From the NCBI GenBank assembly GCA_964016885.1, contig OZ024750.1:26288001-26352000 (forward strand): DNA of 64,000 nt, read 5' to 3'. Of this stretch, positions 19,845-62,514 are shown one piece after another. The notes beneath the pieces were generated by a model, which was not told where the DNA came from, did no database searches, and saw only the letters and a program-made list of their open reading frames with translations. Position 1 is the first letter of the stretch, and each line of letters opens with the position of its first letter. Made by a program: the position numbers and the translations under genes. Source of the stretch: Eledone cirrhosa. Taxonomy: Eukaryota.

Positions 19845-20076
19845 AGTATTGTTATACTTTGGGAGGGTCATGTTGCCAATAAGAAACATACGCACCAGTT
19901 GCTTTCACTCCAATTTATTATAAATTAAATTTATAAATTTAAAAATTTATAAATTTCGGTTGGTTGGTTGGTTCTACAACCGGACGGTTGTTCATATACT
20001 GTCAAAGTTCTTTCGTCACACATTCTGTGACCTCTTCAGTGACTGGGGATTCTTTTCTTTGTTTTGTGCCTCTCCT
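19845..20076 (-). mobile_element. Short PLE pseudo-LTR containing a hammerhead (inverted partner at 24755-24984)
   Basis: ~230-bp reverse-complement match to 24755-24984. Next to TA/TG microsatellites. Confidence 0.75.
20001..20043 (-). ncRNA. Minimal type I hammerhead ribozyme
   Basis: GUCA-CUGAAGA-G-GUCACA-gaaug-UGUGAC-GAAAG-aa-CUU/-UGAC. Confidence 0.75.
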
Positions 20077-24789: not shown

Positions 24790-24832
24790 GTCACTGAAGA
24801 GGTCACAGAATGTGTGACGAAAGAACTTTGAC
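24790..24832 (+). ncRNA. Minimal type I hammerhead ribozyme
   Basis: gtca-CTGAAGA-g-gtcaca-gaatg-tgtgac-GAAAG-aa-CTT-tgac, identical to 20001-20043 (-). Confidence 0.75.
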
Positions 24833-44276: not shown

Positions 44277-45101
44277 CGGCGATGAATTAGTTTAGCGAGG
44301 ATTTTTATATGAAATCGTGTGTCGAAACAGATATTGTTATACTTGGGGAGGGTCATATTTGCGTAATATTGCCAGAATTAATGACAGAACACACTCACTG
44401 TTTGGTTGGTTTTCGCTTCTCGCTGTCTTTTATATCTGCGATCTAACTTACTCGGTCCTCAATGTTGCCATTGACTGACCGACGGTCAAAAATAATACAG
44501 ACACAATATAGACACAAACACATATATATAGTTTACATAATTTACATAAATCTTTCGTTGCACATCTGCAACATCGTCAGTGGTGTTATATTTTTTCCTC
44601 CTGTTGTGTTGTATGTCTACGCCATTTTTTACATTTTTTTTTTTATTCAGTCTGTCTATTTATTTATTTATTTATTTGCTTGTTTGTTTATTTTATTTTG
44701 TCTTCTTTGCGCATGCGTTTGCGTGTGTATATAGTGTTATGTGTGCTGTGTGACTAGTGTGTATAGTGTTGTGTCTGCTGGGTGACTAGTGTGTGTTTAT
44801 GTGCTTGTTGTTATTGTGCTTGTGTATGTATTAATTTATCTTATTTTATTTTATTTTAACTGACGATTTTGCAGATGTGCAACGAAAGATTTATGTAAAT
44901 TATGTAAACTATATATATGTGTTTGTGTCTATATTGTGTCTGTATTATTTTTGACCGTCGGTCAGTCAATGGCAACATTGAGGACCGAGTAAGTTAGATC
45001 GCAGATATAAAAGACAGCGAGAAGCGAAAACCAACCAAACAGTGAGTGTGTTCTGTTATTAATTCTGGCAATATTACGCAAATATGACCCTCCCCAAGTA
45101 T

Positions 45102-45107
<6 letters not shown>
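44275..45107. mobile_element. Fold-back element with ~250-bp arms, each holding a hammerhead core
   Basis: 44331-44581 is the reverse complement of 44859-45107. CUGACGA-u-GUUGCA-gaug-UGCAAC-GAAA at 44547-44580 (-), with a one-mismatch copy at 44860-44893 (+). Confidence 0.8.
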
Positions 45108-45165
<58 letters not shown>

Positions 45166-45171
<6 letters not shown>

Positions 45172-45525
45172 AAAAAGAGATGAAATCGAAGATGCAACTG
45201 AAGTCTTATGTTTTTAAAAAATATATATATTTATTTGGTTCCTTTACCGGTTTCGCAGTTCTTCTGCTTTTCAAAAGGTGAGTTGAGATGGAGGGTCTGT
45301 GGTTTTTCTCACAGATGTGAGAAAAACCACAGACCCTCCATCTCCACTCACCTTTTGAAAAGCAGAAGAACTGCGAAACCGGTAAAGGAACCAAATAAAT
45401 ATATATATTTTTTAAAAGCATAAGACTTCAGTTGCATTTTCGATTTCATCTCTTTTTCTTTATACTTTCACTCGTGTAGGACACCTCGGTTATTTTTCAT
45501 TTTGTAAAAAAAACCCCACTTTCTA
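45166..45525. mobile_element. Near-perfect ~300-bp palindrome with 2-nt loop plus 3' extension
   Basis: Centre ctcaca-ga-tgtgag at 45314-45315. Arms 45166-45313 and 45316-45463. (TA)n flanks. Confidence 0.85.
45351..45388 (+). ncRNA. Minimal hammerhead, U3-A8 core variant (mirror copy 45241-45278, - strand)
   Basis: CCUU-UUGAAAA-GCAG-aagaa-CUGC-GAAAC-cg-GUA/-AAGG. Confidence 0.65.
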
Positions 45526-45528
45526 ATA

Positions 45529-45561
<33 letters not shown>

Positions 45562-45562
<1 letters not shown>

Positions 45563-47126
45563 ACGAAGGAAATGTGGCAAGGAACCAGGTGGACCATAAC
45601 GCACCAAAGTACTCAATACTTAGTGTAGTAGTGTGGGTAATAGGAACGAGTAGGACTCCGACGGCTGAGCTCAAGCCGTTTCGACGGCTAATTCTGGACT
45701 AAATGAAAATTTTTATCCTGGTATATGAATAGCCGAGCTTCTTTGGGGGTAATTCCATATATGGTAAAAGTGATTGTCACAAGGATTGGTCAAAAGTTTG
45801 TTGTTGAGACACATAATTCTATCATGGCAATTTGTGGAAGGAAGGGGTAGCTGAACCTGCCAGTAGAAGAAAGAGGGAGAGAGGGTGGAGGAAACCCAGT
45901 CGTGCGTTGATAGTGCCAACTACAGCAGGGCAGGAGGTCAAGGAAGTATACTAGGGAGGAGGAGGGGGAGGAGTCGAAACAATAAGTAAAACAGTATGGG
46001 GTAAATATATAGAAAAATACCGAGAATGTTAAAAAAACAATTAAATATAAAAAAAACAATTTCTGGTTACTATTTCCTAAGGACAGCTATCAAGTCTCTC
46101 ACTGGTACTGCTGGACTAAAGAAAAGTTTACTAGGTGGGTCGGAATTATAATGAGACCCTTTTAAGAGGTAGTAGTAATCAACCGACTATATCTTACGGT
46201 GACGGGTCAACAAGTGGGGGGCCAAAATACTAAAGAAACTACCACGAAATAATAATTCTGAGTCCCGAGACTAATACGAAATAATTGTTTCTACCCTAGG
46301 CACAAGGCCAGTAACCACCCAGTGCAAAAAATAAACTAATACGAAATAATAATTCAGAATCTCGAAAAAGAATACTAATACTATCTCTAAGGGTGCCGCT
46401 ACGATACAAAAATTCTAGTGCAAACTACATAACTGCTCGTACGAAGTATATGAACAATTTGATACGGAAAATTAATTCAGAGTCGCCCCCCCCCCCCCAA
46501 AAAAAAAACTGATATACGGGAAATTAAAGCAAAGATACCACTAAGAAATGTAGAAAGCACGGAAAAGGGGCAGCCATCGGATAAGAGGCCAAGTATCCGG
46601 GGTCTATCACATCTGCTATAAAAAGCGGAGTCGGCCAATTCTATCATAGAATAGGGGAAGGGGATGGGGGTACTGAGGCTACAAAGGACCGAGGGGCTGC
46701 CTCGAGTAGGCGAGAGAGGGAAAAGGACGACGACAAAGAAAGAGGACTGGGGTGGAAGGACTAAGGAAGGGATGGGGGGAAGGAAATATAGAGGAAACGA
46801 TAAAAAGATATAAAAGAAGATCTTATGTCTACCTTTGCAGGCAGGGGTTACCCATTACAAAGTCGGCAAGTGGGGTGTTACAGCCCTTGTCTACCCCTTC
46901 CCCCCCGGTCATTATGGGGTTTCAGGGCGAGGTAAGTCCTACGCCATGATAGAATTATGTGTCTCAACAACAAACTTTTGACCAATCCTTGTGACAATCA
47001 CTTTTACCATATATGGAATTAACCCCTGAGAAGCTCGGCTATTCATATACCAGGATAAAAATTTTCATTTAGTCCAGAATTAGCCGTCGAAACGGCTTGA
47101 GCTCAGCCGTCGGGGTCCTACTCGTT

Positions 47127-47130
<4 letters not shown>
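45562..47130. mobile_element. Non-coding PLE-like element with ~190-bp inverted termini
   Basis: 45640-45828 is the reverse complement of 46942-47130. Hammerhead-like fold at 47022-47116. (TA)n flanks. Confidence 0.75.
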
Positions 47131-47184
<54 letters not shown>

Positions 47185-47191
<7 letters not shown>

Positions 47192-48456
47192 TATGAAGAG
47201 AGAAGAAACGTTTAGATATAATTAGTAATAAGATGTATCATACCTAAACTGCTTCTAGGTTCCTCGACTACGTAGTTTCCTGGCATAATCAAAAACAATA
47301 CATCATAGAGATATAGAGCTTTTGTGAAGTCTGCCGACTTATCAAGAGGATACCTCATTTTACTAGCTTCAAAGAGCACGTCTATAAGATGTGAGATAGA
47401 ATCCCAAAAGGCGGAAGGGTAGTCAATCACGTGATACGACGGTCAAGAAACAGACCTAAGCCCTTTATAACCCTGAAAAAATACCACGGAGGCGGAGGGG
47501 GTATTCATATCGAGGCCGTAGAAGAGGTGGTTAAGGGGGCAAGAAGTATGAGTAATTAAAATTATAACATCAATATAATTAAGAGATAGAGTATAATGAA
47601 GAATCTGGCATGTTAAACAAACTGATATGATAAAGATGTATGGAATTGACATGTGAAAACTGCTATAGGGTACATTAGATATAGTGTTAAGGTGGCGACG
47701 AGATAACAGTAACCACAAAAATATACTTAGAGACAGGATTTATGAGGTATCTACTATGCTGTAGGTATTCTGGCAATAAACTGGAGATTTACTTATTATT
47801 TGACAGATACACATTTTCGTTTTATTAATTTAGTGAGGATGATAGTTTTTATGTGGTGTTAAATGGAGTTGTAGATTCGTTATTTAAGTAGTCTATACTA
47901 AAGGTAGGGATTGTTAGTTCGAATCATGGGGCTTTAGTTTTCACAGCATCAATAACAAATTGTGTATAAATAAGACAGTAATACCAACAATAATAGAAAC
48001 AATAAAGGTAATAAAATAGTAAAATATGCATGGTAGATATAAGGAACATGATGAATAATATTAGGGATACATTGAGGTGTTCATAATAATAATAAGAATA
48101 AAAAGAGGAAAGTAAGATTTCAAGGAGTGTAGGAGTAATAAGATAATGTACTTAGGATTAGGTTCATCTGTTAGAGATCATGAGTGCTAATGAGAGATAT
48201 AATTGTTTGGTCCGAAGGAGTGAGTAACAGGGAAGTTGGGATTGATTTATGGGCTGATAAGATAGTTGTAGACATTACTGATACATCCCACTGGTATAGA
48301 ATTAAGGAGGCTATAAAGTGTTTATAGAAGATTATGATTCTGTAGTGGGCTGTGTGAGAAGGCAGATTTCATATGTTAAAAGCTAAGTGATATTGGTTCG
48401 AATCACGGTGGTTTAAATCTCGCGAATTTTGTAGCAATCCTATGTCTGCAGACATA
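47185..48456 (-). mobile_element. 5'-truncated PLE starting at the endonuclease C-terminus
   Basis: The - strand begins [16 protein letters not shown], followed by a long 3' region with a hammerhead. (TA)n flanks. Confidence 0.65.
47261..47350 (-). ncRNA. Hammerhead, U3-A8 core variant, extended stem II
   Basis: UCCUC-UUGAUAA-gucGGCA..(~45 nt)..UGCCag-GAAAC-uacgua-GUC/-GAGGA. Confidence 0.65.
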
Positions 48457-48465
48457 TATATATGT

Positions 48466-48521
<56 letters not shown>

Positions 48522-48555
48522 TGCAGACATATATATATATATATATATGTCTGTA

Positions 48556-48667
<112 letters not shown>

Positions 48668-48708
48668 TATATACATATACACATATACATATACATATAT
48701 ATATATAC

Positions 48709-48761
<53 letters not shown>

Positions 48762-48767
48762 TATATA

Positions 48768-48801
<34 letters not shown>

Positions 48802-48807
<6 letters not shown>

Positions 48808-49100
48808 ATTAAATAAATGGAAAACTATATTTATAAAACCATATTTATTTCATTATATATATTTCGGGGATATCATATTAACAATATGCTATGCCTTCAT
48901 CAGACAAAATACAATATATTGTATTTTGTCTGATGAAGGCATAGCATATTGTTAATATGATATCCCCGAAATATATATAATGAAATAAATATGGTTTTAT
49001 AAATATAGTTTTCCATTTATTTAATATTGTAAATATACTCCAAATATTTGTCGAGTGCTTTTATATCAGTTATAAATATTTACTAGTTGTAACCCAACAA
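48802..49100. mobile_element. Spacer-less 230-bp palindrome of two back-to-back hammerheads plus 3' extension
   Basis: Centre acaata|tattgt at 48916/48917, arms 48802-49031. HHR at 48922-48987 (+) and 48846-48911 (-). Same family as the end of 22276-24431. Confidence 0.85.
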
Positions 49101-54910: not shown

Positions 54911-57683
54911 AATGGGCCTGAACTATGCCAACCTTTTTGTTGGCCATGTTGAGGCCCAAATCTTTGCCCAGTACACCGGCCCCACGCCCGAACTGTACGG
55001 TCGTTACATTGACGACTGTATCGGAGCCACGACCCTCACCCGAGAACAGCTCAACTCCTTTCTCTCCTTCTTTTGCTCCTTCCACCCCTCCCTCCACTTC
55101 ACCACCTCTATCTCCACCACCCACGTCCACTTCTTAGACATCTCCGTCGCCTTCGACCCCTCCCACCACTCCCTCGTCACCTCCGCCTTCTTCAAACCCA
55201 CCGACTCCCACTCTTACCTCGACTTCACCTCTTCCCACCACACCCACACTAAACACTCCATTCCCTACTCCCAACTTCTCAGGATCCGCCGCCTCTGTAG
55301 CCGTGATGCTGACTTTGAGTCCCAGGCCCTTTCCCTAGTCAGCGATTTCATCCGCAGAGGTTACCCCCCTCTCTCGTCCACACCGCTCTCACCCGCGCCC
55401 GTGCTGTCCCCCGCTCCACCACCCTCACCCCACGCCACCGCACACCCACCCACCGTCTCCCCTTCCCCATCACCGACCACCCCTCCACCTTACCCCTCCA
55501 CCGCACCATCCGCCGCCTCTTCCGACGCCTCCAGTCCGACCCCTCCACCTCCCACATCTTCCCAACCCCACCACTCCCCTCCTTCAAACGCGCACGCAAT
55601 CTCCGCACCCTCCTCGACCACAGCTCCCTACCCCCAAACCCACGCTCTGTTTCCCCCCCGGTTCCTTTCCCTGTTCTAGGCCCCGCTGCAACACCTGTCC
55701 CCACATCACCAACACCACCACCTTCCAGGGTCCCAACGGCCACTCTCTCTCGGTCCGGCATGCCTTCCGCTGCACCTCCTCCAACCTAGTCTACGGACTT
55801 ATGTCGGACAGACGGGACGTCGCCTGGCGGACCGAGTCACGGAGCAACTCCGGGATATTCGTCTCGGGGGCAGTTCCCCCATCGCCCGCCACTTTGGTGG
55901 CCCTGGACATTCCGCACGCCATCTCACAGTCTGTGGCCTACTCCAGTGCCACGGAACCCCCGCCAATCGCCTTACGGTCGAACAACGAACTATCTTCATC
56001 TTACAGACCCACACTCCCCCCGGCCTGAACTCCCCACCCTTATTCCTTTAGCCTTCGACCGCCCCCCTCCCCCCACACTTATCCCCCACTAACACCACTA
56101 ACACACGCCTCCTTTTCACCGCCCACCCCACAACGAACAATACTAACACCTCCACTCCACCCCTCATCTGACCACCCTTCCACAACTAACATACTAACAT
56201 CCCTTCCCTCCCCTCTTCTCCTCCTCCCTCCTCCTTATCACACGCACACACCCACCGGCACATATATACACGCGCTCACACTAAACACACACCCTACTAC
56301 CACCACTAACCCTCACCCCCACACCTCTCACCCCCACACCTCCATCCCACCACCCCGCAACTAACCTCACTAACACCCCCTGACCCCAAACACACGAACA
56401 CACGCACCCACTTACACCACCCACCCTACACGCAACTAACATCACTAACACCCCCCAACCCCACGCACACGTACCCACACACCCTCGTACACCACCAACT
56501 CTACACAACCTACCACCACTAACCCCCACTCACACCTGCATTCACCCCCTCCCCACCTCCCGTACACTAACACCCACTAACACCTCTTCATCAAACTACA
56601 CACACACCAGTACACCACACTCCCTCCATAGAACCACACACACCCTTCTCTCCCCGCTCCACCCACACCCTCGCTCCACACTCACTCATCCCACTAACAC
56701 CCCTACTAATGCACACACACACACCCTCCTCATTCCAACTTTCACACCTACCCATCCTCGCCCCTTTACCATTCCACCGACTGCTGCTATGCCCTCTGGC
56801 CACCTCCCAGCACAAACAGACCACAGCACTCCCACTGCTGACCACTTCCTGTTGCGCGCGCACCCCACATCTCTCCTTTTCCGACCATCGCTTCATGGAA
56901 TACCCACACGCAGAAATTGACCAACCACCAATCCACTAAACATCTTCGGAATTTACCAACTTTTCAACCATCCTCTTACGTAATCACCTATATAACTCAC
57001 CCACACACACACCCCCAAACATTTTTTTCCTCCACACGCCACCTACACCCACAACACGCTTAAACCCCACACACACGTGCTTTCCACCACATATCTACAC
57101 CCTCTGCCTCCTGATTCCTCTCCCCCCCACCCCTCTATCCACACACGCACAGACACTCCGACCCCCCCCCCCCCACACACACCTCTTCCTGAACATGCAA
57201 CCCCGTTCTTCCCCCAACCCTTACTTTCACATACACACACACACACACACACGCACACCTACACACACACACCACCTTCAGCCCTCCCCGCTCGGACACC
57301 CCGTCTCCCTCTCACCACTCCACCCGCCACCACCCCTACACACCCCACACCCTTCCACCACCTGTTTAACCCCCTTTTATTTTCAGTTTATTTTGATCAT
57401 GCCTTTATTTTTAAATTTTCTCATTCCTTGTATTTTGATCATGCTTTATTTTTATTTTTTATCTTTATTTGTTTTTTATCATTCGCACCGTTTCCTTTCG
57501 CTATATGTCTCTCCACCACTCCCCTACACACCCTTTGAACTCTGTTCCCACACACTTCCCACCTGAGGAAGGGCTTATGCCCGAAACGTCGTCCCCCACC
57601 AACACCCCACTCTCCAGAGCGTGAAATTAATAAACATTTGTTGTACTGCCTCTCTGTTTTGTCCCTGTTCAAATTTTTCCATT
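54910..57683 (+). mobile_element. 5'-truncated Penelope-like element (Neptune-like) in (TA)n
   Basis: MGLNYANLFVG, YGRYIDD, HFLDI, KPTDSHSYLDFTSSH, IPYSQLLRIRR, then frameshifted RCNTCPHI, CTSSNLVY, YVGQTGR. Long C/A-rich 3' region, HHR core CTGAGGA-a-gggc-ttat-gccc-GAAAC at 57563-57587, then AATAAA. Confidence 0.9.
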
Positions 57684-58171: not shown

Positions 58172-58728
58172 AATGTAATCTGAGTATTTTCGAAAATTAA
58201 TAGCATTCGATTCGCTTGCAATTATGCAAACAAGCCTGAATTTTATAGCCATGTCAGTAGAATGAACACTTCATTCTTGCTCCTGTGTTGGTATGCGAAC
58301 AGAACTGCAGACACTGATGTTTCTGGGTATCACCCTTCATCAGTGCAGCCCAATGTTCTCCTGCAAAATCGTCAGAGTCAGTGAAAAGATATGCTATTTT
58401 CAAAATACACAGTGACTCATCGGCCTTATTTGCATATTAGCAGACTGGCTGATCAGTCAGATCTGCATATTAGCCAGATTTGCATATTAGCAGACTGGCC
58501 AGTCAGTTTCCTGTATACGGCCGACGTTGCCAAATTTAAATAAAAGAGACAATTTATATATACAAATTTATACACAACAAAGCCTGCAGCTCCATTTTCC
58601 TTCGCTGTCTCCTCTCCCTCTCTCTATGTCCCTCTTTCAATCTACTCTCTTACCACCAAAATCTCTTTCTGTCTATCTTTCACTCTCTCTTGTGTGTGTG
58701 GGTGAGTGGGGTTGCGGGTTTGTATGTG

Positions 58729-61714: not shown

Positions 61715-61749
<35 letters not shown>

Positions 61750-61806
61750 GACGTAGAATAAGAAAATTTTAAAAATCAAAAATCAACTTACTTACTAAAA
61801 TTTTCA

Positions 61807-61886
61807 CTCCAACTAATTAGTTTCTGTATGGGGATAAATATAGTTACATAATATAACTATAGAGAATTCCATACGTCATCAGGGAG
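61807..61886 (-). ncRNA. Hammerhead ribozyme with extended stem II
   Basis: CUCC-CUGAUGA-c-GUAUGG..(~38 nt)..CCAUAC-a-GAAAC-uaauua-GUU/-GGAG. Confidence 0.78.
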
Positions 61887-62514
61887 TCTATTCTCAGCTA
61901 AGTTCCCAGGCGATGCGCGGACACTAGGAACCCATATAAAAATAATAATAATTCAGTGGATGGAACAAAGCTAGCGAGTACTAAATTCACTGCCTCTGGT
62001 CAGTGGCAGGTTCTAAAGAATCAATCACGTGACACTGAGGTTAATCAGTTAGGAGCGGAGTGGTATTGTGACAAGAGCCTACTACTACCATGAATCAGCA
62101 GTAAATTTTGGCAAGTTTTGCTCAACAAATAATTTGGAGATAAATATAGAGAATTAGTATATTTACCAACATATGTGTACAGATGTTCACCTATGCTAGC
62201 AAATATATGTTATGTCTTAGTACCTTTGTTGTTCTATGCAGTAAATATGGTTTTATAAATATAGTTTCCATTTATCATTATCTTGGAATATTTACTCCAT
62301 TAATTTTTGAGTGTTCTATATCAGTTATAAACAGTAAGTAAGTTGATTTTTGATTTTTAAAATTTTCCTATTCTACGTATTTCATATAATTGTTCTGCAT
62401 CCCCCTGCATAGAACCATAAAGGTACTAAGACATAACATATATATTTGCTAGCATAGGTGAACATCTGTGCACATATGTTGGTTAATATACTAATTCTAT
62501 ATATATATATCATT

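What the first reader, a model, noticed from the sequence alone, without database searches (positions are those of the whole stretch)
47261..47350. Second, independent U3-A8 hammerhead at a PLE 3' end
Seen on the - strand: UCCUC-UUGAUAA-gucggca...ugccag-GAAAC-UACGUA-GUC-GAGGA, downstream of a CRHR..KF..KPP* endonuclease terminus. Its stems are unrelated to the 45351 ribozyme, but it has the same paired C3U plus G8A change. Recurrence in two families argues for selection on the 3-8 pair (inference).
Basis: partly seen in the sequence, partly recalled or inferred. Interest (0 to 1): 0.75.

Follow-up and report, generated by a model that had tools for sequence, protein, structure and literature searches.

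The report
Variant hammerhead ribozyme in retrozyme-like repeat
The motif is a damaged, truncated copy of a hammerhead-type ribozyme, with a paired U-A swap in its core, carried by a 592-base non-coding repeat present thousands of times in this animal-type genome; it likely cuts the repeat's own RNA, and this core variant was already described in such mobile elements in 2014.

Summary
The sequence is at the stated coordinates on the minus strand. There is no endonuclease terminus: "CRHR..KF..KPP*" is a translated (TA)n microsatellite 1 kb away.

The motif lies in a 5'-truncated solo copy (47188-47556) of a 592-bp ORF-less repeat. That repeat has about 5,900 exact core matches in the genome. 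It forms 591-597-bp tandem arrays and head-to-head inverted pairs, and it ends in (TA)n. These are Penelope-like element (PLE) or retrozyme hallmarks.

Other copies have C at 11.1. The window copy has G (47280), which breaks the G10.1-C11.1 pair.

The fold looks selected. A 75%-identical sister family keeps U3-A8 and shows compensatory changes in helices I, II and III.

In 864 kb, a descriptor allowing all 16 combinations at positions 3 and 8 found 24 C-G, 10 U-A and none of the other 14.

The "45351" motif is real. It sits in both pseudo-LTRs of an intact PLE (938-aa RT + GIY-YIG).

U3-A8 PLE hammerheads were published in 2014, so this is a new member of a known kind. Cleavage is untested, independent origin is unproven, and Rfam models do not score it.

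The parts
47261..47350 (-). Hammerhead-like type I motif of the window copy. Helix I is UCCUC/GAGGA. The core is U3-UGAU-A8-A9. Helix II is GU(C)GGCA/UGCCA with G at 11.1 (47280), where other copies have C, and carries a ~46-nt insert. Then come G12-A13-A14 and the 10-nt palindrome ACUACGUAGU (helix III, dimer-type). C17 is at 47266.
47188..47556 (-). 5'-truncated solo copy of the 592-bp ORF-less repeat ('family 1'). It covers unit positions 56-425 at 96% identity to L016:1334-1925 and ends at the family's 'short' 3' end.
47129..47186 (.). (TA)n microsatellite abutting the 3' end of the copy. The same junction is seen in many other copies and in the other hammerhead-bearing families.
45165..45464 (.). 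Near-perfect palindrome (149-nt arms, 98%) made of two head-to-head 5'-truncated 3' ends of an autonomous PLE ('family 2'). Each arm carries the U3-A8 hammerhead, at 45241-45278 (-) and 45351-45388 (+).

Best explanation
The motif is a decayed copy of a type I hammerhead ribozyme with a U3-A8 core pair, carried by a 592-bp non-coding repeat that has the insertion habits of Penelope-like elements; in intact tandem copies it is predicted to self-cleave after GUC.

Shown directly:
- The repeat has no ORF.
- It occurs thousands of times, in 591-597-bp head-to-tail arrays, in head-to-head inverted pairs and as 5'-truncated copies.
- Copies end in (TA)n.
- Each unit carries one hammerhead-like motif. 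Its helices are kept by compensatory changes in a 75%-identical sister family.
- Helix III is a 10-nt palindrome.

Inferred:
- Multimeric transcripts fold two neighbouring motifs into a dimeric hammerhead through the palindromic helix III.
- The dimer cuts after C17 and releases ~592-nt monomers.
- These monomers, perhaps after circularisation, are copied into (TA)n sites by the RT/GIY-YIG protein of an autonomous PLE. This is the non-LTR retrozyme model.
- U3-A8 replaces the usual C3-G8 Watson-Crick pair of the core.
- The window copy itself is most likely dead. It is solitary, it lacks the first 55 nt of the unit, and it has G instead of C at 11.1.
For: Family and architecture:
- The pattern GGTATCCTCNTGATNAGTCGGCAG has 5,922 genome hits and 0 in the reversed control.
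- By my count of the listing, 56 of the first 100 listed hits lie in same-strand tandems spaced 590-607 bp. Ten close inverted junctions are all head-to-head.
- Many copies are 5'-truncated, and some are longer than one unit.
- The unit has no ORF.

Motif quality:
- In copies such as L018:2163-2258, all core letters other than positions 3 and 8 fit the hammerhead.
- Helix II there is G-C, U-A, a bulged C, then GGCA/UGCC.
- The two-strand minimum-energy fold of that copy is the dimeric hammerhead, with a 10-bp intermolecular helix III. The monomer hammerhead fold lies 1.1 kcal/mol above the minimum free energy.

Selection:
- Alignment A1 holds 18 copies that I picked from family 1 and sister family 1b.
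- 94.8% of cells are paired, against 29-60% when the partners are slid.
- Four pairs changed on both sides (helix I U-A/C-G; helix II 10.2-11.2 U-A/C-G; two pairs of helix III), against 0-1 in the slid controls.
- U3-A8 is present in 18 of 18.
- Variant columns shared between subfamilies number 0 of 25 in the 3' half of the hammerhead. They number 11 of 46 in the helix II insert, 13 of 62 upstream and 5 of 68 downstream.

Positions 3 and 8 genome-wide: 24 C-G, 10 U-A and 0 of the 14 other combinations in 864 kb. Shuffles gave 36 and 49 hits per 30 shuffles, scattered over the combinations.

PLE link:
- The other U3-A8 motif sits in both 350-bp pseudo-LTRs (99.7% identical, 4,979 bp apart) of an element with a 938-aa ORF. 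That ORF matches GIY-YIG above the Pfam cut-off (28.3 vs 22.6 bits) and RVT_1 just below it (28.0 vs 29.6 bits).
- The first look found more than 10,000 GIY-YIG candidates in the genome.

Literature (passages read):
- U3-A8 covariation in PLE hammerheads, dimer architecture and palindromic helix III (PMC4209133).
- Pseudo-LTRs, inverted 5'-truncated copies, (TA)n targets and non-autonomous derivatives (PMC8557442).
- Tandem type I hammerhead retrozymes and the circRNA model (PMC7229834).
Against: - No Rfam hammerhead model scores the motif. This holds at gathering score, at E<=10 on 4 kb, and on a 151-nt stretch of an intact copy.
- The minimum-energy fold of the window copy alone is not the hammerhead.
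- Its 10.1-11.1 pair is G-G.
- Helix II carries a bulge and a ~46-nt insert.
- Cleavage has not been observed. No RNA run was available.
- Published minimal PLE hammerheads cleave poorly in vitro (PMC4209133).
- No autonomous element sharing sequence with family 1 was found among the 27 loci I compared it with: 12 GIY-YIG loci and 15 further loci, 14 of them taken around GIY-YIG matches with long open frames.
- The 18 sequences of A1 were chosen by me from about 95 copies in hand and are related. The four compensatory events rest on three lineages only.
Confidence: 0.75

Rival explanations
1. One reading: the motif is the 3'-terminal hammerhead of an autonomous PLE, and the 592-bp unit is the pseudo-LTR of a coding element that exists elsewhere in the genome.
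For: - The family 2 motif is exactly that.
- Pseudo-LTRs and retrozymes are reported to be related (bioRxiv 10.64898/2026.07.22.740005, abstract only).
- The genome holds more than 10,000 GIY-YIG candidates, of which I examined only 27 loci.
Against: - There is no RT or EN remnant beside the window copy. The only tblastn hit of the PLE protein in the window is at 54924-55800 on the other strand.
- The cited endonuclease terminus is microsatellite translation.
- By my reading of the first 100 listed hits, same-strand neighbours at close range are spaced 590-607 bp. None is 3-6 kb apart as around a coding body.
- The unit has no similarity to the 27 PLE loci beyond low-complexity matches.
Confidence: 0.12
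2. The conserved fold is real, but its role is not self-cleavage. It might be a recognition or priming structure for the PLE reverse transcriptase, or a dimerisation signal. On this reading the hammerhead-like core is a relic with little catalytic activity.
For: - Compensatory changes prove selection on pairing, not on catalysis.
- Minimal PLE hammerheads have low activity in vitro (PMC4209133).
- PLE clades without hammerheads proliferate well, and the ribozyme's role is called unclear (PMC8557442).
- In all families seen here the motif sits at a fixed distance, about 75-85 nt, from the 3' end.
Against: - The unpaired core letters (U4 G5 A6, A9, G12 A13 A14, C17) have no pairing role, yet they are invariant in the 18 sequences of A1 across 25% overall divergence.
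- Only Watson-Crick combinations occur at positions 3 and 8.
Confidence: 0.1
3. Chance resemblance: the motif is an accidental match in an AT-rich repeat and has no structural role.
For: - There is no Rfam hit.
- The window copy's own helix II is defective.
Against: - There were 0 hits in 100 shuffled windows with a comparable descriptor.
- A 10-nt palindrome sits exactly at helix III.
- Compensatory changes occur in three helices.
- The hammerhead part has no subfamily-shared substitutions, although it contains three CpGs.
Confidence: 0.03

Closest known systems
Minimal or atypical type I hammerheads of Penelope-like elements, including the U3-A8 core variant (Cervera & De la Pena 2014, PMC4209133)
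   Same: - Type I topology.
- Short helix I (5 bp).
- G10.1-C11.1 closing pair in intact copies.
- An irregular nucleotide in helix II.
- Palindromic helix III that implies a dimeric active form.
- Association with tandem and inverted PLE-type insertions.
- U3-A8 in place of C3-G8.
   Different: - Here helix III is a full 10-nt palindrome rather than 1-2 bp.
- Helix II carries a ~46-nt insert.
- The host element of the finding has no ORF.
- The published U3-A8 set is from Schistosoma mansoni. Here the variant is in three lineages of another genome, one of them with thousands of copies.
Metazoan non-LTR retrozymes (Cervera & De la Pena 2020, PMC7229834; Li et al. 2026 preprint, abstract only)
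   Same: - ORF-less tandem repeats, each with one type I hammerhead.
- Thousands of copies.
- Co-existence with autonomous hammerhead-bearing PLEs.
- Predicted unit-length RNA after double cleavage.
   Different: - The unit is 592 bp, against the reported 150-450 bp repeats (~170-400-nt circles).
- The core is U3-A8, whereas the described retrozyme hammerheads are called canonical.
- Many copies are solo or 5'-truncated and abut (TA)n.
- Expression and circularity were not testable here.
Rfam Hammerhead_1 (RF00163)
   Same: - Same topology and the same core apart from positions 3 and 8.
- The genome has bona fide RF00163 matches: 18 of 74 scored candidates are over the gathering score.
   Different: Neither U3-A8 motif obtains any reportable score from this or any other Rfam model.

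Membership tests
Hammerhead ribozyme, type I | Three helices around the core, with the open end at helix I | tested here: met
   Met in intact family copies. Helix I has 5 bp, helix II 6 bp with one bulge, and helix III is a 10-nt palindrome. 94.8% of cells are paired in A1, with compensatory changes in all three helices. In the window copy the closing pair of helix II is G-G.
Hammerhead ribozyme, type I | Conserved core letters C3 U4 G5 A6 N7 G8 A9 / G12 A13 A14 / A15.1-U16.1 / H17 | tested here: inconclusive
   All letters are present except C3 and G8, which read U and A (18 of 18 in A1). The two changes together keep a Watson-Crick pair. This natural variant is in print (PMC4209133). Mismatched combinations are absent from 864 kb.
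Hammerhead ribozyme, type I | Score at or above the gathering threshold of an Rfam hammerhead model | tested here: not met
   There is no hit at gathering score on the window. There is none at E<=10 on 44500-48500, on L018:2140-2290 or on 45215-45300.
Hammerhead ribozyme, type I | Site-specific self-cleavage 3' of position 17 | not testable with these tools
   No RNA run was listed. The three runs that were laid are short contigs that show no RNA ends.
Penelope-like element (autonomous) | Single ORF with RT and GIY-YIG endonuclease | tested here: not met
   For the finding's element there is no ORF in the unit and no RT or EN beside the window copy. The feature is met for family 2 (the 45351 motif): a 938-aa ORF matching GIY-YIG above the Pfam cut-off and RVT_1 just below it.
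Penelope-like element (insertion style) | Partial tandems (pseudo-LTRs), an adjacent inverted 5'-truncated copy, 5' truncation, and microsatellite (TA)n targets | tested here: met
   The features are as described in PMC8557442.
Metazoan non-LTR retrozyme | ORF-less head-to-tail repeats, each with a type I hammerhead | tested here: met
   Spacing is 591-597 bp, with arrays of up to 5 units. There is no ORF.
Metazoan non-LTR retrozyme | Unit size of about 150-450 bp | tested here: not met
   The unit is 592 bp. The paper also mentions circles from 150 to more than 1000 nt in general terms.
Metazoan non-LTR retrozyme | Expressed as linear and circular unit-length RNA | not testable with these tools
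   No RNA data were available.

The most novel reading that the evidence does not exclude
In this genome U3-A8 is not a rare oddity. It is the working core of about a third of hammerhead copies. It is fixed in at least three lineages: an intact Neptune-like PLE, a 592-bp retrozyme clade with many thousands of copies, and a 322-bp tandem family. The swap changes cleavage or ligation behaviour in a way that favours these elements, for example slower cleavage that protects unit-length or circular RNA. It would then be a functionally distinct hammerhead subclass, not a neutral covariation.
Probability: 0.2. Interest if true: 0.55.

Novelty: new member of a known kind. Interest (0 to 1): 0.3.

Why it matters
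It gives a clean natural case in which the C3-G8 tertiary pair of the hammerhead is replaced by U3-A8 in several abundant mobile-element families, with covariation support for the surrounding fold.

It also shows that Rfam-based annotation misses these ribozymes entirely. At least one intact PLE and two ORF-less tandem families are affected.

It links a U3-A8 hammerhead to a retrozyme-like repeat larger than those described. For annotating this genome, it explains a repeat with about 5,900 exact core matches (and at least 1,900 first-look candidates for the sister family) and its (TA)n-associated palindromic insertions.

It does not open a new kind of system. The variant, the dimer mechanism and the element types are all published.

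Tried and rejected
- Rfam scans found no hammerhead: whole window at gathering score, 4 kb at E<=10, and two short stretches. The strong miRNA-like hits at 45259-45370 are only the family 2 palindrome.
- Earlier findings of this scan: none exist for this genome.
- Search for an autonomous partner of family 1: BLAST of the unit against 12 GIY-YIG loci and 15 further loci gave only low-complexity matches. The partner stays unknown.
- Homology of family 1 with the canonical-core element at 61806-61887: only a 27-nt box aligned (22 of 27 identical). The local score was 17, against a shuffle mean of 12.6 and a maximum of 18, so it is not significant.
- RNA evidence: no RNA holder was listed. The three runs of unknown kind are short contigs of one sample. 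They show both 3'-end types joined to (TA)n and the tandem junction, but nothing about RNA ends.
- My first, stricter descriptors missed the window copy because of its two helix II irregularities. The looser one missed two canonical motifs that one search had found. The descriptor counts are therefore lower bounds.
- My first count of position 11.1 used a 30-mer specific to the window's minor subfamily (192 hits). I corrected this by sampling 34 copies from the general listing.

Full report
**Observation**

On the minus strand, 47350->47261 reads UCCUC-UUGAUAA-GUCGGCAG...UAUGCCAG-GAAAC-UACGUA-GUC-GAGGA. In hammerhead numbering:
- U3 = 47345 and A8 = 47340.
- G10.1 = 47338, and position 11.1 = 47280.
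- G12 A13 A14 = 47279-47277.
- A15.1 = 47276, U16.1 = 47267 and C17 = 47266.

Helix I is a perfect 5 bp. A15.1 to U16.1 (ACUACGUAGU) is a perfect 10-nt palindrome.

Rfam gives no hammerhead hit on the window at gathering score or at E<=10 on 44500-48500.

**Context**

The "CRHR..KF..KPP*" terminus is the end of ORF 48403..48849(-). Its product is almost entirely IYIYIY from a (TA)n microsatellite, and it has no Pfam match.

A tblastn search of an intact PLE protein from this genome against the window hits only 54924-55800, on the plus strand, at 32% identity. So no PLE coding sequence adjoins the motif.

**The repeat that carries the motif**

The 220 bases around the motif match many places in the 3.0-Gb genome at 95-98% identity. 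The first look gave 1,867 candidates, of which 40 were scored.

Comparing loci shows the following:
- The window holds unit positions 56-425 of a 592-bp unit (L016:1334-1925).
- The copy spans 47556->47188 and is followed by (TA)n at 47186-47129.
- The unit has no ORF.

A 24-nt pattern across helix I, the core and helix II, with N at positions 3 and 8, has 5,922 hits and none in the reversed control.

By my count of that listing:
- 56 of the first 100 hits lie in same-strand arrays spaced 590-607 bp, with up to five units.
- Ten close inverted junctions are all head-to-head.

Copies are often 5'-truncated or slightly longer than one unit. Two alternative 3' ends both join (TA)n.

These are the structural habits described for PLEs and their non-autonomous derivatives: pseudo-LTRs, an inverted 5'-truncated copy, and (TA)n targets (PMC8557442, passages read). 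They also fit metazoan non-LTR retrozymes (PMC7229834, passages read).

**The motif in intact copies**

In 34 copies taken from the general listing without regard to the 3' half, 11.1 is C in 34 of 34. By my reading, 27 of 34 have the whole 3' half unchanged.

In the window's own minor subfamily (192 exact hits of a 30-mer), 97 of the first 100 listed have C.

With C11.1, helix II is G-C, U-A, a bulged C, then GGCA/UGCC, closing a ~46-nt insert. For such a copy (L018:2163-2258):
- The hammerhead-constrained monomer fold is 1.1 kcal/mol above the minimum.
- The minimum-energy fold of two strands is exactly a dimeric hammerhead with a 10-bp intermolecular helix III.

Rfam still gives no hammerhead hit on this copy.

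**Is the fold selected?**

- 5,898 of 5,922 hits with U and A.
- 11 with another base at position 3 only.
- 13 with another base at position 8 only.
- No C-G double.

This only shows that the copies are young descendants of U3-A8 masters.

Three other results are informative.

(i) Subfamily-shared variants. Among 72 copies, columns whose second allele is shared by three or more copies number:
- 0 of 25 in the 3' half of the hammerhead.
- 11 of 46 in the helix II insert.
- 13 of 62 upstream.
- 5 of 68 downstream.

Caveats: the sample includes overlapping loci and tandem neighbours. The 5' half was part of the selection pattern for 34 of the copies, so I do not count it.

(ii) A sister family. 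Family 1b was found by chance in a random 100-kb sample.
- It aligns to the whole unit at ~75% identity (557 nt, E = 2.6e-95).
- It has at least 1,941 first-look candidates at 86-95% identity to the query.
- Its hammerhead keeps U3-A8 and every unpaired core letter.
- It differs by paired changes. Helix I has C-G to U-A. In a subfamily, helix II 10.2-11.2 has U-A to C-G.
- Helix III reads ACUACGUAGU, ACUGCGCAGU or ACUGUACAGU, all perfect palindromes.

On alignment A1 (18 copies that I chose):
- 94.8% of cells pair, against 29-60% with slid partners.
- Four pairs changed on both sides, against 0-1 in the slid controls.
- The covariation score was 0.218. None of 500 shuffles reached it. That figure is inflated by relatedness.

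(iii) Position 3/8 combinations. A descriptor that accepts any base at positions 3 and 8 was run on 864 kb. The sample was the window plus 200 kb beside it, and 100 kb from each of six other places.
- It found 24 C-G, 10 U-A and none of the other 14 combinations.
- Shuffles gave 36 and 49 hits per 30 shuffles, scattered over the combinations.
- By my grouping, the ten U-A hits fall into three lineages: family 1/1b, family 2, and a 322-bp tandem family with a sister that again shows paired changes in helices I and II. One further hit is doubtful.

**The "45351 ribozyme"**

Window 45165-45464 is a palindrome with 149-nt arms. It is made of two head-to-head 3' ends, each carrying CCUU-UUGAAAA-GCAG-AAGAA-CUGC-GAA-ACCGGU-A-AAGG.

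The identical motif lies in both 350-bp direct repeats (99.7% identical, 4,979 bp apart) that flank a 938-aa ORF. That ORF matches GIY-YIG above the Pfam cut-off and RVT_1 just below it, and it has a CX4CXXC linker (L072). The motif also lies downstream of GIY-YIG matches in L073 and L081 and occurs in L071 and L083.

So that family is a genuine autonomous PLE with a U3-A8 hammerhead in its pseudo-LTR. Rfam does not score it either.

**Other hammerheads in the genome**

The genome also has canonical hammerheads:
- RF00163 matches over the gathering score: 18 of 74 scored candidates.
- Several other C3-G8 families.

**Mechanism**

Shown: the architecture, the copy number, the pairing and its conservation.

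Inferred from the published models:
- Arrays are transcribed.
- Adjacent motifs pair through the palindromic helix III and cleave after C17.
- Unit-length RNA, possibly circularised, is reverse-transcribed by a PLE RT/EN into (TA)n.

All hammerhead families seen here share one layout: ribozyme, then about 75-85 nt, then a pyrimidine-rich end, then (TA)n. This suggests that they use related enzymes. It is an inference, and it also weakens the claim that the U3-A8 cases are independent.

**Comparison and novelty**

The U3-A8 covariation in PLE hammerheads was reported in 2014, with about 1,300 hits in Schistosoma (PMC4209133). A full-text search for "U3-A8" found only that paper.

I also recall, without having seen them here, biochemical work showing that 3-8 double mutants retain activity, and a 2017 paper on dimeric PLE hammerheads. 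No call supports either recollection.

What is new here is membership: another genome, three lineages, and one that is a 592-bp retrozyme-like repeat with a long helix II insert. The window copy itself is a dead, truncated, mutated copy.

**Verdict**

Interest: 0.3.

Noticed in passing
window 61806-61887 (-), element about 61735-62330, inverted fragment 62330-62400: A canonical-core hammerhead (ACUCC-CUGAUGA-...-GAAAC-UAAUUA-GUU-GGAGU) with the same architecture as the finding: a 5-bp helix I, a ~50-nt helix II insert and a 10-nt palindromic helix III. About 75 nt follow, then (TA)n. An inverted fragment of its own 3' end lies upstream. Overall homology to family 1 is not significant.
   Followed up: partly
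window 58305-58348 (-); 24790-24832 (+); 20001-20043 (-): Further canonical C3-G8 hammerhead-like motifs. One is CUGCA-CUGAUGA-...-GUC-UGCAG. Two are copies of GUCA-CUGAAGA-GGUCACA...GUGAC-GAA-AGAACU-U-UGAC, a family that recurs in the flanking 200 kb and beside one GIY-YIG locus (L040).
   Followed up: partly
window about 47418-47432 (-) and about 62018-62032 (-): A shared box, TCACGTGATTGA (it contains the CACGTG palindrome), lies 70-130 nt upstream of the hammerhead in family 1, in family 1b and in the 61.8-kb element. It may be a common promoter or recognition element. It was not found in the family 2 PLE.
   Followed up: partly
window 54924-55800 (+): Remnant of a different PLE reverse transcriptase, 32-33% identical to the L072 protein over two pieces.
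   Followed up: no
window 45640-45828 and 46943-47131: A 189-nt inverted repeat (98%) whose right arm abuts the (TA)n tract at the finding's 3' end. The same sequence appears next to (TA)n beside family 1 copies at other loci (for example L020). It is probably another microsatellite-associated repeat.
   Followed up: no
L120:6500-7800 (G000:C6:50046500-50047800): A third U3-A8 hammerhead lineage (AGCC-UUGAUAA-GCAU-CAACAA-AUGC-GAA-ACAGGGCUCUGU-C-GGCU). It lies in ~322-bp tandem units with a head-to-head partner, flanked by (TA)n. A sister motif at C1:300011152 has paired changes in helices I and II.
   Followed up: partly
L004 (G000:C10:26267194-26270413): The window copy and about 280 nt of its flanks recur 66 kb away at 96.6% identity. 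The locus is therefore part of a local segmental duplication.
   Followed up: no
L043-L054 and the flank of L009: An abundant canonical hammerhead family (GCC-CUGAUGA-GUCC-UAAAUA-GGAC-GAAAC-AUU-GUC-GGC) scores above the RF00163 gathering threshold. It lies directly beside a family 1 copy in L009.
   Followed up: no
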